Positions 9,207 to 20,562 of a DNA stretch of 58,184 bases are shown in pieces. The first letter of the stretch is position 1. The number at the start of each line of letters is the position of its first letter. This DNA comes from a virus (Duplodnaviria > Caudoviricetes), in the IMG/VR virus record IMGVR_UViG_3300025862_000141, positions 1 to 58,184 of that record. One strand, written 5' to 3'. Both the position numbers and the translations under genes were made by a program. Below the pieces are notes generated by a model that worked only from the letters and a program-made list of their open reading frames with translations, searched no databases and was not told the origin of the DNA.

Positions 9207-9327
9207 AATCGAAGGAATCCAAAAACCTATGTTCTATTTGTCATTGTAACGAGGTCACAAGACCATTTGATGAATGCTTGAACTGTTTTTTGATTTATGG
9301 TCATAAACAAACTAAGGAGAATGAATA

Positions 9328-9567
9328 ATGAGATTGATCGATATTAAAGACCTACCTAGCCGTGGCGCAAAGAAACCTAAATACGTGAGTTTGATCCTAA
9401 AGGCCATTGATGTTTGTCCCATGGGTAAAGCGCATGAACTTGGTAAAGCTATGCAGGTTATTAGCATGAAAAAATCGTTGGCCTATGTCCAAGCTAAAGA
9501 CCCAAAAACGTCCGCGTACAAAATCATTACACGTGGTGGTAGTACCTGGTTGGTCGGCGGCGAATAA
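9328..9567 (+). CDS. Small basic protein, possibly DNA-binding
   Basis: TAAGGAG Shine-Dalgarno; Lys/Arg-rich. Confidence 0.6.
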   Translation: MRLIDIKDLPSRGAKKPKYVSLILKAIDVCPMGKAHELGKAMQVISMKKSLAYVQAKDPKTSAYKIITRGGSTWLVGGE

Positions 9568-9615
9568 AGTAGGCATGTGTCGGGAAGGTTGTGGACTTCC
9601 CGACTGAGGGGGAAT

Positions 9616-11445
9616 ATGAAGTACGCATCTGTCTGTTCTGGTATTGAAGCAGCCAGCGTAGCGTGGATTCCATTGGGGTGGACATGTTCTTGGCTCGCCG
9701 AAATAGATCCGGTCTGTTGTGCCGTTTTAAAACACCGATATCCTGAAACACCGAATCTTGGCGACATGGAGCACATACATGAAAAAGAAGAATTCAAACG
9801 AGGATCAGTTGACGTTCTCATTGGGGGGCCACCCTGCCAGTCCTTCTCAGTCGCTGGACTTAGAAAAGGAATGGATGATCCGCGTGGTAACTTGTCGCTC
9901 GTCTATCTTAGAGTTGTTGACAAATTACGCCCCCGCTGGTTGGTCTACGAAAATGTTCCCGGTCTTTTATCCAGCTGGTCAGATGCGAAGGAAAGTTTCA
10001 CGCCCGATCATATCGAAGGAGACAATGACGGAAACGCTTACGGACGAGCAACAGAATCAGGATGGCAAACTAACAATTTTGATACCTTCACCAGTGGACT
10101 TTCAGAACTCGGGTACGGGTGGTCCTGGGCAATTTATGACGCACAATTTTTTGGAGTGGCCCAACGACGCCGTCGTATCTTCCTTGTCGGACATATTAGT
10201 GGTGAATCAAAATATCCCTTCGCAGTATTATCTCAGTTCACGAGCTTGCAAGGGAATTCTGCGCCGAGCCGAACGCAGGGGCAAAAAGTTACCGGAACCC
10301 TTGAGGCTCGCACTCGAAGCGGTGGGGGACTCGGAGACATAGAATTTGATGGTGGATTAATAGCCAATACCATAACGACTAGAGAAGGGCATCATGGGGA
10401 ACCTAGTATGGAAACATTAATACCGTTAATGTCGCCGGCATTGAAAGCACGAGATTATAAAGGACCGTTTAGCGATGGTACTGGTGACGGTGCGCCATTG
10501 ATACCGTGTATTGTTCCAACATTGACAGGAAATGCCGCTGGTGATAGGCCGAGTGATTATGCGCCTATGGTTTTTCAAAATGAAGGAGAACAACAGGCTA
10601 CAGCACATAAAGGAAACGCCGCTAAAGCATTGCGATTACTGCGGGATCAAGTTGGAGAGGAAACGTTTTCCAAATGGGGACTTGGAATCCTTATTTCACT
10701 TTATCCATCGGAAGTATTGCGATCAAAAATGTATGGGTTTAATGTTCGACAGCCGACCGAGCCAAAGCACGGATTGGTCAACTACACATTATCACGCACG
10801 GAAATTGGTTCCGGCTGGCCTATGCGAGGAATGTGGGAAGCCGGATGCGACGGATGTCCACCACAAGGATGGAAACCATCAGAACAACTTGCGCTCGAAC
10901 TTGGAACGTATTTGTCGGAGTTGCCACAATCGCCATCATCGGCAGAAAGGTTTATGCAAGATTTGTGGGATTCCGCAGAAGGGACGAGGGTACTGCGTCA
11001 AACACTTGGTACGTTTCAAAAAATATGGAGATCCATTACTGACCAAGGACAATCAGTTTACTCCGATAAGAAAGGAGACGGAGTTGAATCCAGTCAGGAT
11101 ATGCAAGGTGATAGGGTGCTTGGGGAAATACCATGCGAACGGGTATTGCGGGAAACATGCGATATAGGCGTTGAGAGGAAAATTGGGAAAGGTAGCTTTG
11201 ACAAGAAGCGAAGCTTCAAAGAATGTTTGGGAAACCAGACGTTTAAAGTAAGACGATTGGTAGTGGAAGAAACGGAAGCATTACAAGGATTTCCAAGAGG
11301 GTATACGTTGGTTCCATATCGGGGTAAGTTCGCAAGTGATTCTGTTCGATACAAAGGTATAGGTAACAGTTTTGCTGTACCAGTCGTGGCCTGGATTGGT
11401 AAGAGGATTCAAATGGTTGAAGATATTATGAATGAGTTGAAATGA
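9616..11445 (+). CDS. DNA (cytosine-5) methyltransferase, 609 aa, with an enlarged variable region
   Basis: Motif I (SVCSGIEA), IV (GGPPCQSFS), VI (ENVPG), VIII (AQRRRRIF), IX (RRLVVEETEALQGFP) and X (GNSFAVPV); GAGGGGG upstream of ATG 9616. Confidence 0.95.
   Translation: MKYASVCSGIEAASVAWIPLGWTCSWLAEIDPVCCAVLKHRYPETPNLGDMEHIHEKEEFKRGSVDVLIGGPPCQSFSVAGLRKGMDDPRGNLSLVYLRVVDKLRPRWLVYENVPGLLSSWSDAKESFTPDHIEGDNDGNAYGRATESGWQTNNFDTFTSGLSELGYGWSWAIYDAQFFGVAQRRRRIFLVGHISGESKYPFAVLSQFTSLQGNSAPSRTQGQKVTGTLEARTRSGGGLGDIEFDGGLIANTITTREGHHGEPSMETLIPLMSPALKARDYKGPFSDGTGDGAPLIPCIVPTLTGNAAGDRPSDYAPMVFQNEGEQQATAHKGNAAKALRLLRDQVGEETFSKWGLGILISLYPSEVLRSKMYGFNVRQPTEPKHGLVNYTLSRTEIGSGWPMRGMWEAGCDGCPPQGWKPSEQLALELGTYLSELPQSPSSAERFMQDLWDSAEGTRVLRQTLGTFQKIWRSITDQGQSVYSDKKGDGVESSQDMQGDRVLGEIPCERVLRETCDIGVERKIGKGSFDKKRSFKECLGNQTFKVRRLVVEETEALQGFPRGYTLVPYRGKFASDSVRYKGIGNSFAVPVVAWIGKRIQMVEDIMNELK
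9779..10342 (+). CDS. Nested +1-frame protein inside the C5 methyltransferase gene (accessory or beta-subunit-like, 187 aa)
   Basis: GGAG 7 nt before ATG 9779; ends in SLSDIL...PSQYYLSSRACKGILRRAERRGKKLPEPLRLAL, a pattern I recognise from alternative-frame products of phage C5 methyltransferases. Confidence 0.7.
   Translation: MKKKNSNEDQLTFSLGGHPASPSQSLDLEKEWMIRVVTCRSSILELLTNYAPAGWSTKMFPVFYPAGQMRRKVSRPIISKETMTETLTDEQQNQDGKLTILIPSPVDFQNSGTGGPGQFMTHNFLEWPNDAVVSSLSDILVVNQNIPSQYYLSSRACKGILRRAERRGKKLPEPLRLALEAVGDSET
10580..11167 (+). CDS. HNH endonuclease nested in the +1 frame of the C5 methyltransferase gene (~195 aa)
   Basis: CDYCG...RKYCDQKC zinc finger; CEECG...DVHHKDGNHQNN..SNLERICRSCHNRHH HNH core; two C..C...GYC.KH modules. 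Confidence 0.85.
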   Translation: MKENNRLQHIKETPLKHCDYCGIKLERKRFPNGDLESLFHFIHRKYCDQKCMGLMFDSRPSQSTDWSTTHYHARKLVPAGLCEECGKPDATDVHHKDGNHQNNLRSNLERICRSCHNRHHRQKGLCKICGIPQKGRGYCVKHLVRFKKYGDPLLTKDNQFTPIRKETELNPVRICKVIGCLGKYHANGYCGKHAI

Positions 11446-11585
11446 AATTCTTAAAATTTATCCGACAGTTTTGGCATGACTTAAAAAATCCGATGTGTGT
11501 TAAATGTGGTCATTATCATTGGGCTATTTTTGGATTCTGTTGTGACTGCGATTGTGAACCTCCATGGTTTTATAGGGTGAAATAA
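11442..11585 (+). CDS. 47-aa Cys/His microprotein (not in the ORF track)
   Basis: ATGA overlap upstream and TAATG overlap downstream; CVKCGHYH...CCDCDC. Confidence 0.55.
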   Translation: MKFLKFIRQFWHDLKNPMCVKCGHYHWAIFGFCCDCDCEPPWFYRVK

Positions 11586-13162
11586 TGTCAATAACCATAA
11601 AAGTTTTGAACGTTACGAGTACGATTCATGGATTGACCAACGAACAACAGGCATGGGTAGACAATGCGCTTTCGTTTTTTGTTAAAGGCGCACAGTTTAG
11701 TTCTGCTTATAGAAAAAATCGGTGGGATGGACGAACGCGGTTGTATAAAGGTGCTACCGCTGCGGCACCCTTTGGCAAGTTTAGTACAGGGTTATTGTCG
11801 CGGGTTCTGACTGTATTAGCAGACAAGTGTCCTGGGGTAGAGGTGAATGTGATTGATGAACGATTACACCCCGAACGTAATCAACCGATACCGTTAGTAG
11901 GTGGTATAGAGTTACGTGATTACCAATTGGATACGTTGAAGTCAGCACTTGAACGTGGGCGAGGTATTTATCGTCTGCCGACAGCTGGGGGAAAAACTCT
12001 GATTGAAGCTGTGGTTATGGGAACCTTGAATGTTCCAACATTAGTCTTGAGTCATCGAGTGGATATTATGATGTATTTGAAAGAAGAGTTTGAGCGTGTG
12101 TTAGGTGTGCCCATTGGACTTATTCAAGGAACCACCAAGGAATTACGTAAATTTAATGTAGGCATGATCCAAACGATTTCAAACTGTTTTGATAAAAGTG
12201 CGACGGATGAAAAGGCCAAAGCCGTCACGGATTTTATTACGGAGTATTGCCAGTGTCTTATCGTGGATGAAGCGCATCACGCGATCAGCGACCAGTACGT
12301 TGCTTTATTTAATAGAGCCTATGCGAGCTTCTATCGCCTGGGCTTTTCGGCCACGCCATTTCGTGGTGGTGATGAAGACATGATGGTAGAAGCGGGATTA
12401 GGCAAGTTGCAGTTGAGCATGACACCATCAGATCTTATTAAGCAAGGTAGACTTGCCAAGCCATATATTTTCTTTGTGGATTATGGGGACACGTCTAAAG
12501 CTGTTGAAGAAGTGGTCAAATGTCACGATTGTCAAAATGATGTCCTTAGTCGAGAAATTCGGCCTATGGCGGCCGAAATGGAACGTACGGTGTGGGTATG
12601 TACTCAATGTAAAAAGCAATGGACGCTTTACATGGACAACATGGAACGCAACTTGGTTCGCAACGCAAAGCGTAATAAAGTCATAGTGGCGTTAGCGCAA
12701 CGCGAAGTACGAAAGAGACGATCTGTACTTATTGCAGTGACACATATTGCACATGGGCAAATTCTTACTGATGCGTTGTGTAAAGTGATTGATCCGGCAT
12801 TAGTGATGTTTGCACATGGTGAGACGGAAAATCGTCACGATATTTTAGAGAAATTAAGGAATAAGGAATTGCTGGTTGTCGTCCATACCAATATCTTCAA
12901 CGAAGGAATAAATTTGCAAAATCTGAACACTTTGATCACGGCAAAATCAAGTGATAGTCCGATTGACATTATCCAGTTGGCAGGACGTGTGTTGCGCCGA
13001 GCTAAAGGAAAAACAAAGACTGTTATTATTGATTTTCTTGATAAATCCAAACCATTTAGTGCGCGGAGTAAGCATCGGCAAGAATTGTTGGGAGCAGAGT
13101 CTGAATACGTTATCAAGCAATGGAAATATTCACCGAAAAAGAAAGAAAAGGTGTTGGCATGA
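11585..13162 (+). CDS. Superfamily 2 DEAH helicase (UvsW/ResIII-like) with a zinc-ribbon insert
   Basis: LRDYQ, LPTAGGKT, IVDEAHH, GFSATPFR, EGINL and QLAGRVLR motifs. Confidence 0.92.
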   Translation: MSITIKVLNVTSTIHGLTNEQQAWVDNALSFFVKGAQFSSAYRKNRWDGRTRLYKGATAAAPFGKFSTGLLSRVLTVLADKCPGVEVNVIDERLHPERNQPIPLVGGIELRDYQLDTLKSALERGRGIYRLPTAGGKTLIEAVVMGTLNVPTLVLSHRVDIMMYLKEEFERVLGVPIGLIQGTTKELRKFNVGMIQTISNCFDKSATDEKAKAVTDFITEYCQCLIVDEAHHAISDQYVALFNRAYASFYRLGFSATPFRGGDEDMMVEAGLGKLQLSMTPSDLIKQGRLAKPYIFFVDYGDTSKAVEEVVKCHDCQNDVLSREIRPMAAEMERTVWVCTQCKKQWTLYMDNMERNLVRNAKRNKVIVALAQREVRKRRSVLIAVTHIAHGQILTDALCKVIDPALVMFAHGETENRHDILEKLRNKELLVVVHTNIFNEGINLQNLNTLITAKSSDSPIDIIQLAGRVLRRAKGKTKTVIIDFLDKSKPFSARSKHRQELLGAESEYVIKQWKYSPKKKEKVLA

Positions 13163-13737
13163 AACTTGAAGGTACTGCCCTCATCGAAGTTATTAAAAAG
13201 GCAGAATGGCGATTCTGGGCAGGTGTTTACGAAAAATCTGACTCTGAGTGTTGGTTGTGAACTAAATCGGTAAATACCTCTGGATATGGTAATTTACGAA
13301 TAGCGGATAAACTTATGCAGGCGCACCGTGTCTGTTTCGTATTGGTGTATGGTTTTTTACCAGAAGTTGTTATGCATTCGTGTGATAACCCACCATGTTG
13401 TAATCCAGGGCATCTTAAGGCAGGTACGAAGGCATTGAATAGCGCAGATAAAATAGCAAAGGGCAGACAGGTTTATGTTTTTGGTGACCAAAATCCATCA
13501 CGGATGCATCCTGAACGATTATCATGTGGGGATACGCATTATGCACGGACTAATCCAGAATTACTTTGTCGTGGTGAATCCCATCCTGCAACATCATTTA
13601 CGGAAGAAAAAATAAGAGAAATTCGCCAAAGATACGTGCCAGGAATGGTTTCTTATTTGATATTAGCTAAAGAGTATAACGTGGGTATGTCAACGATTGC
13701 TCGGATTATTAAACGAAAGGTTTGGAAACATGTTTAA
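13159..13737 (+). pseudogene. HNH homing endonuclease with an in-frame TGA (13258-13260)
   Basis: ATG 13159 (ATGA overlap): ...RFWAGV....ECWL*TKSVNTSGYG...AHRV...MHSCDNPPCCNPGHL; the stop sits at the second Trp of the usual CWxW motif. Confidence 0.8.
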
Positions 13738-15505
13738 ACACGAAATAAAATTAAAGATAGCACATGATTTTTATTTACCCGCAGAATCTGCCACACAGAC
13801 GTTCGGAATTTTAGCTATCAGAGGAAGTGGTAAAACCTACACGGCATCTGTCCTTGCTGAAGAAATGCTTGAAGCTAATCTTCCTATTGTGGTGTTGGAT
13901 CCGACCGGAGCATGGTGGGGGTTACGGGCTGATGCTGATGGTAAAGGGCCTGGGTATCCGATTGTAGTTATGGGTGGGGATCATGGCGATGTTCCGTTAG
14001 AATCAACTGCCGGCGAAGTGTTGGCCGATTTTGTAGTTGAAGAACGGCAATCGGTGGTTTTGGACATGTCACATTTCCGTAAAGGTGAACGCGCACGGTT
14101 TGTAACTGACTTTTGCGAAAAACTCTATTTGAAGAACCGCAAGGCGTTGCATTTGTTCATAGATGAAGCTGATTCGTTCGCGCCACAGAGACCGATGCAT
14201 GGTGAAGAACGTATGTTGGGTGCTCTTGAAGATATTGTGAGACGTGGGCGTATCCGTGGTCTTGGTGTGACTTTGATCACCCAACGGTCAGCGGTTATAA
14301 ATAAGGACGTATTGAGCCAGGTTGAAGTTTTAATTGCGCTACGCACCATAGGTTCACATGATCGCGCGGCTATAGATGTTTGGACCGAAGCGCATGGCAC
14401 TAAAGAGCAACGAGATTTGATGATGAGTTCGTTAGCGTCGTTGCCTAAGGGCACGGCTTGGTTTTGGAGTCCAGGGTGGCTGGATGAGTTTAAGAAGATT
14501 GAGATCCGTAAGCGGCGAACGTTTAATTCCTCGGCTACGCCAAAGGTTGGAGAACGGGTTATTGAACCACGTAAACTGGCTGATGTGGACTTGGTGGCCC
14601 TTACTAAACGTATTGCGGATACGGTTGAGCGCGTCAAGGCGACGGATCCAGTAGAATTGCGGCGGCGTATTGTGGAGTTGGAAAAGCAAATAAAAATTGG
14701 ATCTGTTCCTATTTTACAGACAGTTAAGGAAGTAGCCAAACCCAAGACCATTGAGGTTTCTGTTTTCAAAGATAAGCATGTAGACCGACTTGAGAAAATG
14801 ACTTCCAAAATGGCGGTAGCACTTGAGCATATGATTTCTTTGCTCACCAAACATTATCGCATGGTAAACCAGTCACCGCTGAGGATAAAACGAGAGAAGT
14901 TATATCCCGATGGTGTATTAGGAATACCACCAGAACGTCCACATAATATGATATCAGTTGAACTGGCAAAGATAAAAGGTTATCCAAATTTCTCTAGGAT
15001 AAAAACGGGAGACGCTATTATTTTTGATGCAGACACATTGGGGGCCGATTTATCTAAAGCTGAACGATGGATATTGACAGTTTTAGCACAACATCCTGGT
15101 GGGCGTACAAAGGCACAGGTGGCCTTAATTGCGGGCTACGCGGTCAAAGGTGGTGGCTTTCTCAATGCTATAGGGGCATTAGTTACAAAGGGGTTTATTA
15201 CGCGACAGGGTGGCGATTTACTCATGATTACTGGACGTGGGCAAGCAAATATTGGAAATGTGGTTCCATTGCCTACTGGTAAAGCGTTGGTAGATCATTG
15301 GTTAAGTAAACTTGGTAAAGCTGAACGGTCTATTCTTCAGTATTTGACCAATAATTTTCCGAATGAGTTTACAAAAGAAGCTATAGCAGCGGGATCTGGC
15401 TATGAGGTTAAGGGCGGTGGTTTTTTGAACGCGCTTGGGCGATTACGAACATTAGAACTTATTGAAGGGCGTAATGAGATTAGAGCCAGCGAGAACTTGT
15501 TTTAG
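13730..15505 (+). CDS. HerA/DUF87-like P-loop ATPase with tandem C-terminal winged-HTH-like repeats
   Basis: AIRGSGKT, VLDPTG, LFIDEAD, GRIRGLG and ITQRS motifs; duplicated L.KAER.IL...GY.VKGGGFLNA.G.L. Confidence 0.85.
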   Translation: MFKHEIKLKIAHDFYLPAESATQTFGILAIRGSGKTYTASVLAEEMLEANLPIVVLDPTGAWWGLRADADGKGPGYPIVVMGGDHGDVPLESTAGEVLADFVVEERQSVVLDMSHFRKGERARFVTDFCEKLYLKNRKALHLFIDEADSFAPQRPMHGEERMLGALEDIVRRGRIRGLGVTLITQRSAVINKDVLSQVEVLIALRTIGSHDRAAIDVWTEAHGTKEQRDLMMSSLASLPKGTAWFWSPGWLDEFKKIEIRKRRTFNSSATPKVGERVIEPRKLADVDLVALTKRIADTVERVKATDPVELRRRIVELEKQIKIGSVPILQTVKEVAKPKTIEVSVFKDKHVDRLEKMTSKMAVALEHMISLLTKHYRMVNQSPLRIKREKLYPDGVLGIPPERPHNMISVELAKIKGYPNFSRIKTGDAIIFDADTLGADLSKAERWILTVLAQHPGGRTKAQVALIAGYAVKGGGFLNAIGALVTKGFITRQGGDLLMITGRGQANIGNVVPLPTGKALVDHWLSKLGKAERSILQYLTNNFPNEFTKEAIAAGSGYEVKGGGFLNALGRLRTLELIEGRNEIRASENLF

Positions 15506-16598: not shown

Positions 16599-16906
16599 CT
16601 GACAACGAAATTGATGAAGCGGTGGCGAGGAAACTGGGTATCCAAGACCCCCCTCGGTGTGATGGTGTTGGACACGAGAACTGTCTTCAATATCACTGGC
16701 CGTTTTATTCAACCGAAATTGCTACGGCGTGGAAAATTGTGGAATTTATAAAAGCAAAAGGTGATGATTCAGAATATTTTTGTTTAGAAGGTTTCTTTTC
16801 TGGAAAATACCATTGTCAGTTTGATAATGATTCTGTTGAGGACGACACAGTACCCAGGGTAATTTGCCGCGCATTTTTAAAATTGGACGAAGAAGCAAAA
16901 CCATGA
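16595..16906 (+). CDS. Phage ABA-sandwich-like protein
   Basis: EIDEAVARKLG...PFYSTEIATAWKIVE...PRVICRAFLK. Confidence 0.75.
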   Translation: MTDNEIDEAVARKLGIQDPPRCDGVGHENCLQYHWPFYSTEIATAWKIVEFIKAKGDDSEYFCLEGFFSGKYHCQFDNDSVEDDTVPRVICRAFLKLDEEAKP

Positions 16907-19900
16907 GCGAAAAGTGCAAACTGTGTCCTCTGCACGAGTTTTCGGAAGCTAACTGTGTCGGTGGAATTGGGCCACAACCAGCATCTATATTGTTTGTAGC
17001 CGAATCGTTAGGGGAAGAAGAATCTCTTAAACGTGAACTATTTATTGGGCCAGCAGGACAGTTATTGAACAAAATGTTTATTGATGCTGGTATTATGCGG
17101 TCACAAATTCGTATCGAAAATATTGCGAGATGTAGACCAGTTGATAAAGCCAAAGTTTGGGAAGACCGTAAAGGCAAAAAGCATTTTGGAAACAGACCAC
17201 TGACATTGGAAGAAATTTATACGTGTGCTCCTACCTATCTCGAAGCCGAAATTAAGAAAACGAATCCAGTGGTCATTGTCCCGCTTGGCAATGTGGCATT
17301 GCACTATGTGCTTGGTGAGTATCGGGTATCGTCCGTATCCAAGCAAGGCAATTACAATGTGCCAAAACTTGAAAAAGCGGTAAATAAAATGCCGTCTATT
17401 ATGAATGCGCGGGGTATTGAAATTTGGAGTGACCGATATCAATGCAAAATCATACCCATCATTCACCCGACGGCGTTGTTGCGATCCCCGCGTAAAATGG
17501 GCGAGACAGTTGAAGATTTGCGCCGGGTGTTGGTAGCAAGTAAATCTCGAACTCAAACAGTTAGTTCGTCTGTGAACTATGTCTTGGTAGACAAGTGGGA
17601 CGATGTTCAGTGGCTATTGGCACGATTACGTGACGTTCCTCTTTTTTCTGTGGATACCGAAACTACGGGTCTGGACTGGTTGCGCCATAAAATTATCTCT
17701 ATTGGGTTTTGTTGGAAAGAGAACACAGGTGTTGCGTTACGCGTGTTGGATTCATCGGGGTTACCTATTTGGTCATTAGAACAATGGGGGATTATAAAAG
17801 ATGCTTTAGTTGATATTTTTGAAGATGATACCAAGACCATTATTGCCCATAACGCCAAGTTCGATATGTTGATGTTGATGGCTGAAGGTATCAGCTACCC
17901 TATTAACTTGGTTGATACTATGCTCATGCACCATATTCTTGATCCTGAGAGTGGGCATGGGTTGAAAGAGTTGGCACGGGCACTGACAGACATGGGTGGT
18001 TATGATGACGCGTTGGAAGCGTATAAGGATGAGCATCCAGAGGCAAAAAACAATTACCAGTTTATTCCATGGGAAATGCTTGGCCACTATAATTCGGCGG
18101 ACTGCGACAGCACGTTTCGTCTTTATGGCATATTGAGTAAACGATTAGCAGAACGTCCCACAACACAATTATTTTTTCAAACTTGGATTCTCCCGTTTAT
18201 CGAGGTCGTTACGGAAATGGAACGTGAAGGTATTGGGCTGGACTTTGCGCGGGTCAAGCGGTTGTACATGGAAATGAGTGCCAAATGTACCGAGGTTCAA
18301 AGTGAGTTTAGTGCTCAGTTAGGTGTGTTGGATATTAATTTGGGATCATCAGCGCAACTTGCCAAACTGTTTTTTGGCGAACTCAAAATGCCTGTTATTC
18401 GTCGTAGTGAGAAAACGAATGAACCGAGTGTTGACGAAGATACAATTCTGGAATTAGCAAAGTTATATCCCGAAAACAAATTGCTTATGCTTCTGTTGGA
18501 GTATAGGTCCTTACAAAAAACAATGAGCACGTATTTGGTTGGGTTTAAAGATGCGGCGTTGTTTGGGCGCATGTACGGAAAGCAAGATGTACCCGCTATA
18601 TTGAGTAAGACGTGTTGGCTTCCTAATGATGCTACAGAAGTCAAGGTATGGACCGATGGTCGGATTCACGCGGACTTTACTATGCAGACAACGCCGACAG
18701 GGAGATTGTGTATTGCCAAAGGTACATTGATTGAAATAGTTAGAGATGTGTCCAAATATCCAAAAGGTATACCGATTGAGGATGTGAAGGTGGGAGATTG
18801 GGCATATTGTTTTGATGATAAAGGGAATTTAGATTTAAGAAAAGTTTTATGGTCTGGAAAAACAGGGGTAAAGAAAGTCATTAGAGTACACTGGCAAGGA
18901 ACTGGGAGGCATACCATAGGATATGTTGATATGACCCCGGAGCATCAAGTGCGTTTAATTGATGGTTCTTATAGAGAAGCAAACAATTTAAATATAGGAG
19001 ATCAAATTTTATCGTTATCACGATCAAAAACTGGGGGCTATGCGAGGCTTCAGGCTACAGGTGGTTTAGAACTACGCGAACATCGTTTTGTTGCTTTGAA
19101 AGTTTTTGGTGAAGTGGGAGAACATGTTCATCATAAAGACCATAATAAATTAAACAACATTCCTAGTAATTTAATGAATGTGACTTCACAGCAACATATT
19201 AAGCAACATCCAGTATTAGAAGTTACTCGTGAAAAACGGAGAGCCAATGGGCGACTTTTGTATTTACAAGGTAAATTGGGGCATCTTTGGAAAAGAGGTG
19301 AGCAACACGCACATTGGTTGGGGTTAACAAAGGAATGGTTGCTATTGAAGTTATGGGAAGAAAAGGGAAAACCCGAGCGTTTAGCTAAGAAACATGGTAT
19401 TGATTATTCAACATTGCAGAAATATTTACGTATGCACCACATCGATTTTAAAGATATTGCCGTGCAGTTCACAGGAGATGGACGTGAACTAACGAAACCA
19501 CTCTTAGAGACTTTTCGACAGATATACCAAGAAAAGGGACAAGATGAAGCATTGAAATTTATACGTCTTGGTTATTATCGAATAAAAGCAATTCAAGAAA
19601 AGTTTGGGTTCGTTCCCCATAATCACCGTATTACAAAAGTTGAAATTTTGGAAGACAAGGTAGATGTGTATGATTTGGAAATCGAAGGAAGCCACAATTT
19701 TATTGCTAATGAGTTATGTGTTCATAATTCTTGTAAATCTCCGAACCTCCAAAATCTTAAACGCAATACCGAAGATGATCTTAAAACGGGTTGGACAATT
19801 CGACCAAATTTGATTGCGCGTACGGGATACAGTTTTATTGAAGCGGATTTTAAACAGGGTGAAGTATTTGTTGGGGCATCGTTATGCCGCGATACCAATT

Positions 19901-20562
19901 TGATTAATGACATGTTAAGCAAGGAAGGTGTGCACCGACGAGTCTATGGTCGTATTTATAATGTGGATCCAAGTACAGTTACTGATGCCCAGAAATCAAT
20001 AGCGAAGCCGGTGGTTTTCGGCACGTTTTTTGGGCAACAAGCAGATGGATTAGCAGAATTATTGAAGATTCCTGTAGAACAGGCGCAAGATATCATAAAC
20101 CGATTTTTTAATCAGTACCAGGGGCTTAAATATTGGTTGGATTCAACGATTGCAAATGCGCGAAGAAATGGGTATGTGGATACGATCTTTGGGCGGCGGC
20201 GGTATCTGCCGGCGATCAATAGCCCAGATATGAAGTCTCGTGCCAATAGTGAACACTATTCTGTAAACACGCCTATACAATCCACATGTCATGATCTATT
20301 AATTATTGCTTCAGTAAAGATTCATCGGGATATTCGCACGGAGTCGTTACCTATGAAACTGGTTGCTGAAAACCATGACGCGTTTATTTATGAGGTTCGT
20401 GACGACGCTATTCAAGAATGTAGTGCGGTCATTAAGCAACGTATGGAAGAACCTGTGATTCCTGAATTGATACCGATGCAAGCCGAAATGGAAGTCAGTA
20501 AGAGTTGGAAGGCTAAGGTTGAGGAAGATGTGTCTGATGCTGAAGAATTGGTGGTTGCATGA
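16903..20562 (+). CDS. polA: Family A DNA polymerase with an N-terminal family-4 uracil-DNA-glycosylase-like domain, a 3'-5' exonuclease and an intein
   Basis: UDG-like: CKLCPL, FIGPAGQLL, RCRP..NRP, IHPTALLR. Exonuclease: DTETTGL, HNAKFD, YNSAD. Polymerase: TGRL|S..PNLQN, ADFKQGE, AKPVVFG, HDA. Confidence 0.95.
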   Translation: MSEKCKLCPLHEFSEANCVGGIGPQPASILFVAESLGEEESLKRELFIGPAGQLLNKMFIDAGIMRSQIRIENIARCRPVDKAKVWEDRKGKKHFGNRPLTLEEIYTCAPTYLEAEIKKTNPVVIVPLGNVALHYVLGEYRVSSVSKQGNYNVPKLEKAVNKMPSIMNARGIEIWSDRYQCKIIPIIHPTALLRSPRKMGETVEDLRRVLVASKSRTQTVSSSVNYVLVDKWDDVQWLLARLRDVPLFSVDTETTGLDWLRHKIISIGFCWKENTGVALRVLDSSGLPIWSLEQWGIIKDALVDIFEDDTKTIIAHNAKFDMLMLMAEGISYPINLVDTMLMHHILDPESGHGLKELARALTDMGGYDDALEAYKDEHPEAKNNYQFIPWEMLGHYNSADCDSTFRLYGILSKRLAERPTTQLFFQTWILPFIEVVTEMEREGIGLDFARVKRLYMEMSAKCTEVQSEFSAQLGVLDINLGSSAQLAKLFFGELKMPVIRRSEKTNEPSVDEDTILELAKLYPENKLLMLLLEYRSLQKTMSTYLVGFKDAALFGRMYGKQDVPAILSKTCWLPNDATEVKVWTDGRIHADFTMQTTPTGRLCIAKGTLIEIVRDVSKYPKGIPIEDVKVGDWAYCFDDKGNLDLRKVLWSGKTGVKKVIRVHWQGTGRHTIGYVDMTPEHQVRLIDGSYREANNLNIGDQILSLSRSKTGGYARLQATGGLELREHRFVALKVFGEVGEHVHHKDHNKLNNIPSNLMNVTSQQHIKQHPVLEVTREKRRANGRLLYLQGKLGHLWKRGEQHAHWLGLTKEWLLLKLWEEKGKPERLAKKHGIDYSTLQKYLRMHHIDFKDIAVQFTGDGRELTKPLLETFRQIYQEKGQDEALKFIRLGYYRIKAIQEKFGFVPHNHRITKVEILEDKVDVYDLEIEGSHNFIANELCVHNSCKSPNLQNLKRNTEDDLKTGWTIRPNLIARTGYSFIEADFKQGEVFVGASLCRDTNLINDMLSKEGVHRRVYGRIYNVDPSTVTDAQKSIAKPVVFGTFFGQQADGLAELLKIPVEQAQDIINRFFNQYQGLKYWLDSTIANARRNGYVDTIFGRRRYLPAINSPDMKSRANSEHYSVNTPIQSTCHDLLIIASVKIHRDIRTESLPMKLVAENHDAFIYEVRDDAIQECSAVIKQRMEEPVIPELIPMQAEMEVSKSWKAKVEEDVSDAEELVVA
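18709..19728 (+). mobile_element. Intein (340 aa) with an HNH homing endonuclease, in PolA
   Basis: Starts CIAKGT; block B MTPEHQV; HNH VHHKDHNKLNN..SNL; ends VYDLEIEGSHNFIANELCVHN followed by Ser. Removal restores TGRLS..PNLQN. Confidence 0.95.

What the first reader, a model, noticed from the sequence alone, without database searches (positions are those of the whole stretch)
9616..11445. Three proteins from one gene: a C5 methyltransferase about 63% double-coded
Seen: the 1830-nt methyltransferase frame is open from motif I to motif X, while its +1 frame holds two separate ORFs, 9779-10342 (564 nt) and 10580-11167 (588 nt). Both have protein-like motifs, so 1152 of 1830 nt carry two messages on the same strand. 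Knowledge: M.EcoHK31I has a second subunit encoded in an alternative frame of its own gene. Inference: a compact methylase + accessory subunit + nuclease unit, possibly a nested restriction-modification-like or homing system that standard gene callers would report as one gene.
Basis: partly seen in the sequence, partly recalled or inferred. Interest (0 to 1): 0.85.

Follow-up and report, generated by a model that had tools for sequence, protein, structure and literature searches.

The report
Methylase gene hiding two more genes
One phage DNA-methylase gene also carries, in a second reading frame, a small and very widely conserved protein that probably partners the methylase, plus a mobile HNH nuclease, so a single stretch of DNA appears to make three proteins.

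Summary
ATG 9616 to stop 11445 is a C5 DNA methyltransferase. Its +1 frame holds ORF-A (9779-10342) and ORF-B (10580-11167).

ORF-A is a genuine overlapping gene. It stays open in the +1 frame in 69 of 69 methylase loci chosen without reference to it. Third-base entropy at conserved four-fold codons falls from about 1.8 bits to 1.2 and then 0.6 bits exactly across its span. A start codon sits at the same place in 107 of 114 genes, and 69 of those 107 have a Shine-Dalgarno core. It occurs in thousands of phages and prophages, including the dam/dmt gene of the P1-like phage P7. It matches no known family. A complex prediction supports binding to its own methylase (0.71; best control 0.00). Some relatives fuse it in frame to the methylase C-terminal half.

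ORF-B is an HNH endonuclease inside a roughly 690-nt insert that the methylase frame reads through. The host frame is stop-free in 64 of 66 nested copies; the third frame in 1 of 66. This kind of element was published in 2025 as the "ShiLan domain".

No expression data exist. ORF-A looks undescribed: I found no paper on it. ORF-B is a new member of a known kind.

The parts
9616..11445 (+). C5 DNA methyltransferase CDS (609 aa), frame 0, read straight through the HNH insert
   Evidence: Pfam PF00145 E=6.6e-51. phrog_116 2.7e-75. TIGR00675 5.7e-46. Homologues begin at this ATG. Called as a 609-aa protein, P0121.
9832..9840 (+). Methylase motif IV, Pro-Cys-Gln (catalytic Cys), overlapped by the ORF-A N-terminal part
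   Evidence: P73, C74 and Q75 are invariant or nearly invariant in alignment A5.
10162..10176 (+). Methylase motif VIII (Q-R-R-R-R). The same bases read 'PNDAVV' in ORF-A
   Evidence: Q183 to R187 are conserved in A5.
9768..9771 (+). Shine-Dalgarno core GGAG, 7 nt upstream of the ORF-A ATG, inside methylase coding sequence
   Evidence: Sequence. A strong core lies at -17..-5 in 69 of 107 homologous starts, against a 10% background.
9779..10342 (+). ORF-A: conserved overlapping gene (187 aa) in the +1 frame, running from methylase motif IV to just past motif VIII
   Evidence: 470 homologues and 6156 representative clusters. Open in the +1 frame in 69 of 69 independently chosen loci. Synonymous constraint.
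10108..10339 (+). ORF-A C-terminal module, with the invariant motif A-C-x-G-I-L-R-R-A. This is the most constrained stretch and folds as a small helical domain
   Evidence: Third-base entropy 0.63 bits against 1.83 outside. +1 identity 0.79 against frame-0 identity 0.46. pLDDT 95-97.
10560..11245 (+). Approximate extent of the HNH-bearing insert, absent from HNH-less methylases. Frame 0 reads it as a poorly conserved stretch of about 228 aa between the target-recognition region and motif IX
   Evidence: Methylase homology stops near aa 327-330 and resumes at aa 558 (GTG numbering). HNH+ and HNH- pairs. The host frame is kept open but is not conserved.
10580..11167 (+). ORF-B: HNH endonuclease in the +1 frame. 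The frame is open from 10532, and other in-frame ATGs lie at 10532 and 10559
   Evidence: phrog_1271 5e-13. Pfam HNH 19.6 bits, below the 21.4 cut-off. 169 homologues at 52-69% identity. AlphaFold mean pLDDT 89.5, high from about residue 25.
10583..10597 (+). Retained AAGGAG core (10583-10588). An AGG codon (10595-10597) sits where relatives have the HNH start ATG
   Evidence: Sequence. Alignment A4. Comparison with L175 and others.
11248..11409 (+). Methylase motifs IX-X in frame 0, downstream of the insert
   Evidence: 62% identity to CRP-821. A2 consensus. A5 invariants R546 to N584.

Best explanation
The window is part of a soil phage genome. The locus is an orphan C5 DNA methyltransferase gene in the replication module, and it carries two further genes in its +1 frame.

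(1) Frame 0 makes a 609-aa methylase with motifs I-VIII, a repeat-like target-recognition region and motifs IX-X. It is translated straight through a mobile insert of about 690 nt. In frame 0 that insert yields an unconserved, stop-free stretch of about 228 aa just before motif IX.

(2) ORF-A (187 aa) starts from its own Shine-Dalgarno core and ATG inside the methylase message. It has a weakly ordered N-terminal part, overprinted on motifs IV-VII. It also has a highly conserved helical C-terminal module, overprinted on motif VIII and the linker after it. I infer that ORF-A binds the methylase as a partner polypeptide. It may supply in trans the segment that ordinary C5 methylases carry in frame right after motif VIII, in the way M.EcoHK31I is built from two polypeptides read from one DNA in two frames.

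(3) ORF-B is a zinc-ribbon HNH endonuclease that lives inside the insert. I infer that it is a homing endonuclease. On this view it cuts insert-free methylase alleles near the motif IX junction and is copied in by repair. The host tolerates it because the insert stays open in the methylase frame.

Shown here: selection on both +1 ORFs, the conserved ORF-A initiation site, and openness of the host frame.
Inferred: translation, binding, homing, and any need of ORF-A for methylation.
For: ORF-A selection:
- It is open and homologous in the +1 frame in 80 of 80 viral loci.
- It is open and homologous in 69 of 69 loci chosen only by motif IX-X, and in 80 of 80 bacterial-genome loci.
- Mean third-base entropy at conserved four-fold codons of 114 unique genes (GC 44-68%) is 1.83 bits upstream, 1.21 over the ORF-A N part, 0.63 over the C part, and 1.84 downstream.
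- Inside versus outside the overlap: Mann-Whitney p = 7e-26. 24 of 97 inside columns fall below 0.5 bit, against 0 of 84 outside.
- The pattern is the same in the 66 genes chosen independently of ORF-A (p = 5e-17).
- After motif VIII the +1 frame is more conserved than frame 0 (0.79 against 0.46).

ORF-A initiation:
- A start codon lies within 10 codons of model position 1 in 107 of 114 genes (92 ATG).
- A strong Shine-Dalgarno core is present in 69 of those 107, against a 10% background.

ORF-A breadth:
- 6156 representative clusters reach E<=1e-3.
- 137 phage records match, including P1-like dmt genes.
- In P7 the +1 frame of dam/dmt holds a 165-codon span with E = 6e-35.

ORF-A partnership:
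- Complex prediction scored 0.71 (runs 0.70, 0.79, 0.71); the best of 3 controls scored 0.00.
- That mark was reached by 58 of 80 solved complexes and 2 of 110 mismatched pairs.
- The runs share at least 54% of contacts, and partner pLDDT is at least 54.
- 8 of the 10 long ORF-A hits I scanned carry ORF-A fused in one frame to the methylase motif IX-X part.
- 2 of 297 loci are fused at the DNA level. In 10 more the C-terminal half lies in the ORF-A frame.
- The ORF-A C-terminal sub-profile matches frame 0 just after motif VIII in canonical methylases that lack ORF-A. It matches in 0 of 114 ORF-A-type methylases.

ORF-B:
- The HNH assignment rests.
- Of 85 scored loci picked only by HNH similarity, 79 have the host frame open across the whole hit. 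The other frame is open in 0 of 85.
- 66 of those loci have a methylase N domain upstream, and 65 have motif IX-X right downstream.
- 64 of 66 unique nested copies have no stop in the host frame. In the third frame only 1 of 66 is stop-free.
- Column identity is 0.57 in the HNH frame, 0.36 in the host frame and 0.34 in the third frame.
- No Rfam intron match was found.
- HNH presence changes at least 18 times on a methylase tree.
- HNH+ and HNH- genes sit close together, for example L197 and L013.
- The same kind of element is described in PMC11855218 (Results, Discussion and legends read).
Against: - There is no expression evidence. Only DNA runs hold the stretch.
- ORF-A has no Pfam, PHROG, NCBIfam, PDB-sequence or Foldseek relative.
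- Its language-model 'recognition' value is low, at 1638.
- About 135 of its 187 residues fold with low confidence.
- Part of the ORF-A profile similarity is a by-product of methylase conservation. A +1 piece of the canonical CUB-EPI_14 gene, which is broken by stops, still hits the ORF-A profile at E<1e-5.
- The complex score is the model's own confidence. My own alignments were used, so the calibration holds only roughly, and both chains have pLDDT in the 50s.
- The most conserved ORF-A residues (156-172) are mostly absent from the listed interface.
- The match of the ORF-A C-terminus to the canonical post-motif-VIII segment is weak. The i-E values run from 9e-4 to above 1 in a set of 67 sequences.
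- 27 of 297 loci have other architectures.
- In this window the HNH lacks the family's ATG and its C-terminal tail, so this copy may be poorly expressed or decaying.
- 6 of the 85 HNH loci are not nested. 2 of 66 have stops in the host frame.
- The tree is FastTree only, and the HNH+ and HNH- rows were sampled differently.
Confidence: 0.62

Rival explanations
1. ORF-A is a real, translated overlapping gene, but it is not a methylase subunit. It acts on its own, for example as a regulator of the methylase operon, a DNA-binding factor or an anti-defence protein.
For: The most conserved basic helix (A-C-x-G-I-L-R-R-A-x-x-R-G-K-x-L-P) is largely outside the predicted interface. No known fold or family was found. 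Binding is only predicted.
Against: The complex prediction passes with controls at 0.00. ORF-A recurs fused in frame to the methylase C-terminal half. In every locus examined it lies inside a methylase gene. Its C-terminus resembles the in-frame segment of canonical methylases.
Confidence: 0.25
2. ORF-A is a shadow ORF. On this view it is an untranslated by-product of methylase amino-acid conservation and codon bias, or of an RNA- or DNA-level signal.
For: Alternative frames of conserved genes can look conserved. A stop-broken +1 piece of a canonical methylase still hits the ORF-A profile. The atlas recognition value is low. The N-terminal two thirds fold poorly.
Against: Third bases are invariant at many four-fold codons across genes of 44-68% GC, and only within the ORF-A span. 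Equally conserved motifs I and IX-X show no such constraint. The +1 frame beats frame 0 after motif VIII. The start codon and Shine-Dalgarno core are conserved. The frame is open in 229 of 229 loci. The C-terminal module has pLDDT 95-97.
Confidence: 0.04
3. The HNH-bearing insert is a self-splicing intron or an intein-like element, and it is removed before the methylase functions.
For: HNH homing genes usually ride in introns or inteins. The DNA polymerase of this same window carries an HNH intein.
Against: No Rfam family matches 9300-11700 at E<=1. The frame-0 protein has no intein domain. The host frame is stop-free in 64 of 66 copies against 1 of 66 for the other frame, which only makes sense if it is translated. 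PMC11855218 reached the same conclusion for its element (Results read).
Confidence: 0.06
4. ORF-B and the methylase form a nested restriction-modification or addiction pair. The HNH cuts DNA that lacks the methylase's mark. It is not a homing element.
For: Nesting guarantees that the two are inherited together. HNH nucleases do occur in restriction systems. Nothing I ran excludes this.
Against: Most methylases of the family lack the HNH; 3 of 114 unique genes carry it. Its presence changes at least 18 times on the methylase tree. It always sits at one site next to motif IX, in methylases only 25-50% identical to each other. This fits site-specific invasion. In this window the HNH start codon is lost while the methylase is intact.
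Confidence: 0.1

Closest known systems
ShiLan-domain 'hidden HNH' insertion in actinobacteriophage DNA methylases (Arsenault, Gosselin and Gogarten 2025, PMC11855218)
   Same: Both are inserts in a phage methylase gene that are absent from close homologues. Both add no stop codon in the host frame. Both encode an out-of-frame zinc-finger HNH endonuclease, show no intron or intein signature, are sporadically distributed, and are annotated as one gene.
   Different: The paper places its HNH in the 'third frame'; here it is in the +1 frame. tblastn of ORF-B against 50,697 phage records at E<=0.01 returned no methylase-embedded mycobacteriophage hit. It therefore looks like a different HNH lineage, though I did not confirm that phage ShiLan is in that collection. 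Here the family sits at one fixed site next to motif IX of C5 methylases, in soil and aquatic phages, in prophages of many phyla and in one Staphylococcus phage. Many copies have an ATG with a Shine-Dalgarno core, whereas the paper found no ribosome-binding site.
M.EcoHK31I, a natural two-polypeptide C5 methyltransferase (passages in PMC2836561)
   Same: A second polypeptide is encoded entirely within the methylase gene in another reading frame and is made from internal start codons. ORF-A is likewise nested, has its own start, and is predicted to bind the methylase.
   Different: The EcoHK31I beta chain carries motif IX, which its alpha chain lacks. Here frame 0 has its own motif IX-X, and ORF-A shows no relation to that region (hhalign probability 0.06). 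ORF-A overlaps motifs IV-VIII. Whether ORF-A is needed for activity is untested. Sequence homology to the beta chain was not tested, because I held no sequence of it.
M.AquI-type split C5 methyltransferases (recalled from memory; no call)
   Same: The minority architectures seen here resemble a methylase split within or before the variable region. They have an N-terminal ORF with motifs I-VIII and a second ORF, in the ORF-A frame, that carries the recognition region and motifs IX-X.
   Different: In this window the methylase is one polypeptide, and only the ORF-A piece is separate.
Intein-borne and free-standing HNH homing endonucleases
   Same: They share the nuclease class and the presumed homing lifestyle. 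The same window holds an HNH intein in DNA polymerase A and a free-standing HNH gene.
   Different: ORF-B is neither spliced out nor intergenic. The host tolerates it by translating its other frame.

Membership tests
C5 cytosine DNA methyltransferase (Pfam PF00145 / TIGR00675) | Profile match above the curated cut-off | tested here: met
   PF00145 scored 174.1 bits against a cut-off of 22. TIGR00675 scored 157.7 bits against 100.65.
C5 cytosine DNA methyltransferase (Pfam PF00145 / TIGR00675) | Catalytic Pro-Cys motif IV, Glu-Asn-Val motif VI, Gln-x-Arg-x-Arg motif VIII and motifs IX-X, all in one frame | tested here: met
   All are visible in the frame-0 translation and conserved in A5. Methylation activity was not tested.
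HNH endonuclease | Profile match | tested here: inconclusive
   Pfam PF01844 scored 19.6 bits, below the 21.4 cut-off, with E = 1e-3. PHROG phrog_1271 (HNH endonuclease) gave 5e-13. Foldseek against the PDB gave nothing below E = 0.1.
HNH endonuclease | His-Asn-His core with flanking Cys pairs, conserved across relatives | tested here: met
   The invariant residues in 34 aligned sequences are D108, H111, N123, H132 and H136, and the Cys pairs C34/C37, C98/C101, C128/C131 and C142/C145. The model is confident, with pLDDT 89.5.
ShiLan-type hidden (out-of-frame) HNH insertion element | Insert present in some close methylase homologues and absent from others | tested here: met
   L197 against L013: flanks 66% and 73% identical, with 166 aa against 28 aa between them. 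3 of 114 unique methylases carry the HNH.
ShiLan-type hidden (out-of-frame) HNH insertion element | No stop codon when read in the host frame, with the nuclease in another frame | tested here: met
   The window has none. 64 of 66 copies are stop-free in the host frame, against 1 of 66 in the third frame.
ShiLan-type hidden (out-of-frame) HNH insertion element | No intron or intein signature | tested here: met
   Rfam gave no match at E<=1. The frame-0 protein has no intein domain. Splicing was not tested at the bench.
ShiLan-type hidden (out-of-frame) HNH insertion element | Sequence homology to the published ShiLan or Pacc40 HNH | tested here: not met
   tblastn of ORF-B against the phage collection at E<=0.01 found only CUB-EPI_14 strongly, and no methylase-embedded mycobacteriophage hit. 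I therefore call it the same kind but not the same family. I did not confirm that ShiLan is in the collection.
M.EcoHK31I-type alpha/beta methyltransferase | Second polypeptide encoded in another frame inside the methylase gene | tested here: met
   ORF-A is nested in the +1 frame and is under selection.
M.EcoHK31I-type alpha/beta methyltransferase | Beta chain supplies motif IX, which is missing from the alpha chain | tested here: not met
   Frame 0 has motif IX-X. ORF-A is unrelated to that region (hhalign probability 0.06).
M.EcoHK31I-type alpha/beta methyltransferase | Both chains required for activity | not testable with these tools
   Only a binding prediction is available: 0.71 against 0.00 for the controls.
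Functional overlapping (overprinted) gene | Excess synonymous-site constraint in the host frame, confined to the overlap | tested here: met
   Entropy runs 1.83, 1.21, 0.63 and 1.84 bits along the gene. p = 7e-26. In the independently chosen subset p = 5e-17.
Functional overlapping (overprinted) gene | Direct evidence of translation | not testable with these tools
   No RNA run is listed, and no proteomics is available.
Group I intron carrying a homing endonuclease | Ribozyme core detectable | tested here: not met
   cmscan of 9300-11700 against 4227 Rfam families returned 0 matches at E<=1.

The most novel reading that the evidence does not exclude
Thousands of phage and prophage C5 methyltransferases, including the cytosine-methylase half of the dam/dmt gene of P1-like phages, may be obligate two-polypeptide enzymes written in two reading frames of one DNA stretch. 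On this reading a pair of compensating frameshifts moved the ancestral segment that follows motif VIII out of the methylase frame. That segment survives as the C-terminal module of ORF-A. ORF-A gained an overprinted N-terminal arm and its own ribosome-binding site, and it returns to the enzyme in trans. The fused and split architectures seen in about 9% of loci would be intermediates of this process.
Probability: 0.35. Interest if true: 0.9.

Novelty: new variant of a known kind. Interest (0 to 1): 0.8.

Why it matters
Long same-strand overlapping genes are considered rare in double-stranded DNA phages and bacteria, and standard gene callers forbid them. ORF-A overlaps its host gene by about 560 nt and shows a clean, family-wide selection signature. 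It is present in thousands of phages and prophages across many bacterial phyla, and in the model phage family P1/P7, so it can be tested directly in E. coli.

If ORF-A is a methylase partner, the way a large class of orphan phage methylases works and is annotated would need revising. It would also give a natural example of how frameshifts can split an enzyme into overlapping pieces.

The HNH part extends the recently described 'hidden HNH' elements from mycobacteriophages to a distinct, widespread family with a fixed insertion site. It also shows statistically that the host frame is kept open but is not conserved.

Tried and rejected
Searches that led nowhere:
- Close DNA relatives in the phage collection. 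Only short pieces matched.
- Known families for ORF-A: none in Pfam, PHROGs or NCBIfam.
- PDB sequence profile search for ORF-A. The best hit was E = 0.63.
- Foldseek of the ORF-A model. The best hit was E = 4.3.
- The protein atlas returned only unnamed viral clusters.
- Foldseek of the HNH model returned nothing below E = 0.1, only zinc-finger arrays and weak HNH hits.

Ideas rejected:
- ORF-A carries motif IX, like the EcoHK31I beta chain (hhalign probability 0.06).
- The insert is a group I intron.

Expression: no RNA holder is listed for 9500-11500. Three DNA runs hold it, and all three are flagged as possible sources.

A strict regular expression for the canonical post-motif-VIII segment found only 3 of 180 proteins, so I used the profile search instead.

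Literature searches for a described ORF-A-like gene found none. One search found the ShiLan paper that covers the ORF-B kind. The library holds only open papers, so this is not proof of absence.

What I saw of each paper:
- PMC11855218: abstract, Results, Discussion, and the legends and tables.
- PMC2836561: passages only.
- PMC9957025: start of the abstract and two passages.
- PMC12707154: passages only.
- bioRxiv 10.64898/2026.09.14.751524: search listing only.

Supplements and the GitHub survey of PMC11855218 were not seen. They may list elements of this same HNH family.


Full report
WHAT IS THERE. The window is a 58,184-bp viral record that CheckV estimates as 38% complete. All long ORFs lie on the + strand, and the GC skew is uniformly positive. 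One search confirms the three ORFs. The first is a long frame at 9577..11445. Homologues support a start at ATG 9616, which gives 609 aa, and the protein database holds it as P0121. The other two are +1-frame ORFs at 9758/9779..10342 and 10532/10580..11167. The long frame is a C5 DNA methyltransferase (PF00145 6.6e-51; phrog_116 2.7e-75; TIGR00675). Its neighbours are a helicase (11585-13162), a free-standing HNH gene (13315-13737) and a family-A DNA polymerase. No restriction enzyme lies next to it, so it looks like an orphan phage methylase in the replication module.

IS IT MORE THAN CHANCE? In 25 other long genes of the window, the longest +1 open span is 39-87 codons. Here the spans are 203 and 213 codons. 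I resampled synonymous codons of the methylase 5000 times, which gave P = 0.0004 for the first span and P = 0.003 for the second.

ORF-A (9779-10342). It has no Pfam, PHROG or NCBIfam match. Even so, 470 database proteins of about 150-250 aa match it at 37-49% identity over about 90% of its length. The +1 frames of the methylase genes of two unrelated named phages, Roseobacter phage CRP-821 and Caulobacter phage DMCA, hold the same ORF. Both phages are annotated with a single gene there.

I then fetched DNA in three ways.
- By an ORF-A motif in viral contigs. ORF-A lies in the +1 frame of an open methylase frame in 80 of 80.
- By the methylase C-terminal motifs IX-X only, which do not overlap ORF-A. 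Of those 80 loci, 69 have a complete methylase N domain, and all 69 have an ORF-A profile hit in the +1 frame (E from 4e-26 to 2e-78). The other 11 are cut by contig ends or have split hits, and 5 of those still show ORF-A.
- By ORF-A motifs in bacterial genomes. At least 600 stretches matched and 567 were confirmed. They come from Pseudomonadota, Acidobacteriota, Verrucomicrobiota, Planctomycetota, Nitrospirota, Chloroflexota, Saccharibacteria and others. ORF-A is nested in 80 of 80.

A profile search of 1.84 billion cluster representatives found 6156 hits at E<=1e-3 and 1137 at E<=1e-30. In the GenBank phage collection, 137 records match ORF-A, against 1412 that match the methylase. ORF-A therefore marks one large subfamily, not all C5 methylases. 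That subfamily includes P1-like dmt genes. In P7, the +1 frame of dam/dmt has a 165-codon open span that matches ORF-A model positions 46-149 (E = 6e-35). P7 is annotated with one gene there.

SELECTION ON ORF-A. I aligned 114 unique methylase genes (GC 44-68%, median pairwise identity 57%). At columns with a conserved four-fold-degenerate codon I measured the entropy of the third base.
- The mean is 1.83 bits upstream of ORF-A.
- It is 1.21 bits over the ORF-A N-terminal part (methylase motifs IV-VII).
- It is 0.63 bits over the ORF-A C-terminal part (motif VIII and the linker), with many columns at 0.0.
- It is 1.84 bits just downstream of the ORF-A stop.
- The equally conserved motifs I and IX-X stay at about 1.5-2.0 bits.
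- Inside versus outside the overlap gives p = 7e-26. 24 of 97 inside columns are below 0.5 bit, against 0 of 84 outside.
- Some loci had been picked by an ORF-A motif, so I repeated the count on the 66 genes found through the C-terminal motif alone. The result is the same: 1.81, 1.29, 0.58 and 1.77 bits, with p = 5e-17.
- At methylase residues 211-225, the +1 frame is more conserved than frame 0 (0.79 against 0.46).

A start codon lies within 10 codons of ORF-A model position 1 in 107 of 114 genes (92 ATG, 11 TTG, 4 GTG). A strong Shine-Dalgarno core lies 5-17 nt upstream in 69 of those 107, against 10% at other positions of the same genes. In the window this is GGAG at 9768-9771, followed by 7 nt and then ATG 9779. 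This is the standard signature of a functional overlapping gene with its own initiation site.

WHAT ORF-A MIGHT DO. AlphaFold with 117 sequences gives a low-confidence N-terminal part of about 135 residues. It gives a very confident C-terminal helical module (pLDDT 95-97, helices 136-141, 154-167 and 173-184). Nothing similar is found in the PDB by fold or by sequence. Three lines of evidence point to the methylase itself as the partner.
- The complex prediction scored 0.71 (runs 0.70, 0.79, 0.71), and the best of three controls scored 0.00. That mark was reached by 58 of 80 solved complexes and 2 of 110 mismatched pairs. The runs share at least 54% of contacts, and partner pLDDT is at least 54. 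My own alignments were used, so these counts hold only roughly. The contacts join methylase residues 153-217 and 543-608 to ORF-A residues 25-59, 104-141, 146-152 and 175-182.
- Among the top 150 profile hits, several are 300-375 aa long. Of the 10 long ones I scanned, 8 carry ORF-A at the N-terminus and the methylase motif IX-X region at the C-terminus in one frame. At the DNA level I classified 297 distinct loci. 270 have the window's architecture. 2 have ORF-A running on into motifs IX-X. 10 have the C-terminal half in the ORF-A frame, separated from ORF-A by a single stop in L332 and L283. 15 are otherwise split.
- A sub-profile of the ORF-A C-terminus matches frame 0 of canonical methylases that lack ORF-A, just after their motif VIII. 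The hits are L228 (i-E 9e-4), CUB-EPI_14 (5e-3), L223 (0.038), L240 (0.1) and weaker ones at the same place. It matches none of the 114 ORF-A-type methylases in frame 0.

This third line is weak evidence. It suggests that ORF-A's module is the ordinary post-motif-VIII segment, displaced into another frame. The closest precedent is M.EcoHK31I, whose beta chain is encoded in another frame inside the alpha gene (PMC2836561). That beta chain carries motif IX. ORF-A does not, and frame 0 here has its own motif IX.

ORF-B (10580-11167). It is an HNH endonuclease by several measures.
- phrog_1271 gives 5e-13. The Pfam HNH match is just under its cut-off.
- 169 homologues share 52-69% identity with it.
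- An His-Asn-His core and four Cys pairs are invariant across the aligned relatives.
- The model is confident from about residue 25 onward (pLDDT 89.5).

Methylase homology to insert-free relatives stops near residue 327-330 (GTG numbering) and resumes at residue 558. The HNH therefore lies in an insert of about 690 nt.

I fetched 87 loci by HNH similarity alone, and 85 gave a scorable hit.
- In 79 of those 85 the frame one base upstream is open across the whole HNH hit. The other frame is open in 0 of 85.
- 66 have a methylase N domain upstream, and 65 have motifs IX-X immediately downstream.
- Among 66 unique nested copies, the host frame has no stop in 64. The third frame has no stop in 1, with a mean of 6.9 stops.
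- The host-frame translation is no better conserved than the non-coding frame (0.36 against 0.34, with 0.57 for the HNH frame).

So the methylase is read through the nuclease gene, and selection acts only to keep that frame open. There is no Rfam intron match and no intein domain in frame 0.

The insert is sporadic.
- 3 of 114 unique methylases carry it.
- HNH+ and HNH- genes can be 66-79% identical in their flanks.
- On a FastTree of 141 methylase N domains, HNH presence changes at least 18 times. The ten shuffles I printed gave 28-34.

A 36%-GC Staphylococcus phage, CUB-EPI_14, has the same nested HNH in its annotated 'DNA-cytosine methyltransferase'. The HNH is unannotated, and that gene has no ORF-A.

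This kind of element is already in print as the 'ShiLan domain' of mycobacteriophage methylases: an out-of-frame HNH with no stops in the host frame and no intron or intein features (PMC11855218). ORF-B appears to be a different HNH lineage. It has a fixed site next to motif IX and, in many copies, an ATG with a Shine-Dalgarno core.

In this window the codon at the family's start position is AGG (10595), although the AAGGAG core is retained. The nearest upstream ATG (10580) has no such core. The C-terminal tail seen in long-form relatives is also missing. This copy may be weakly expressed or beginning to decay.

WHAT IS NOT SHOWN. No RNA or peptide data exist for this locus. Binding, homing and any need of ORF-A for methylation are inferences. 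Part of the similarity among ORF-A sequences over motifs VII-VIII is a by-product of methylase conservation.

VERDICT. The 'three proteins from one gene' reading is supported by comparative evidence. ORF-B is a new member of a kind described in 2025. In six of the eight literature searches I ran I looked for a paper that describes an ORF-A-like overlapping gene and found none. It is widespread, strongly constrained, and directly testable in P1-like phages.

Noticed in passing
window 16864-20562 (+): The family-A DNA polymerase (1232 aa, with an N-terminal uracil-DNA-glycosylase-like domain) carries an in-frame intein with an HNH_3 endonuclease at about residues 688-955. This one phage therefore holds three lifestyles of HNH homing genes: intein-borne, free-standing and out-of-frame nested.
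   Followed up: partly
window 13315-13737 (+): A free-standing HNH endonuclease (140 aa) has a 3' end that overlaps the start of the next long ORF (13697-15505). That ORF has a weak large-terminase match.
   Followed up: partly
window 10583-10597 and 11165-11167: The nested HNH of this window has AGG where relatives have their start ATG, although the AAGGAG core is kept. It also ends about 25-30 residues before long-form relatives. This may be early decay of the homing gene.
   Followed up: partly
L251 (Enterobacteria phage P7) 1957-3975, match at 2501-2737: The dam/dmt gene of the P1-like model phage P7 holds a 165-codon +1 open span that matches ORF-A (E = 6e-35). Nothing is annotated there. 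Its N-terminal part is cut by stops, so the conserved core is the C-terminal module.
   Followed up: partly
L250 (Staphylococcus phage CUB-EPI_14) 1330-3135, HNH at 2501-2953: A low-GC (36%) Staphylococcus phage methylase is annotated as one gene, but it contains an unannotated +1-frame HNH of the same family. Its frame 0 stays open through the HNH.
   Followed up: yes
L371, L403, L332, L283, L173, L374 and others: About 9% of loci (27 of 297) have split or fused architectures. Either ORF-A runs on into the recognition region and motifs IX-X, or the C-terminal half follows ORF-A in its frame after a single stop. These may be natural split methylases, evolutionary intermediates or pseudogenes.
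   Followed up: partly
L164, L165, L175: In three HNH-bearing loci the host frame has one stop just after the HNH and just before motif IX, leaving motifs IX-X as a 56-57-aa ORF in the same frame. This could be a broken methylase or a read-through site.
   Followed up: no
window 1-58184: GC skew is uniformly positive (about +0.2) over the whole record, and every ORF that looks real lies on the + strand.
   Followed up: no
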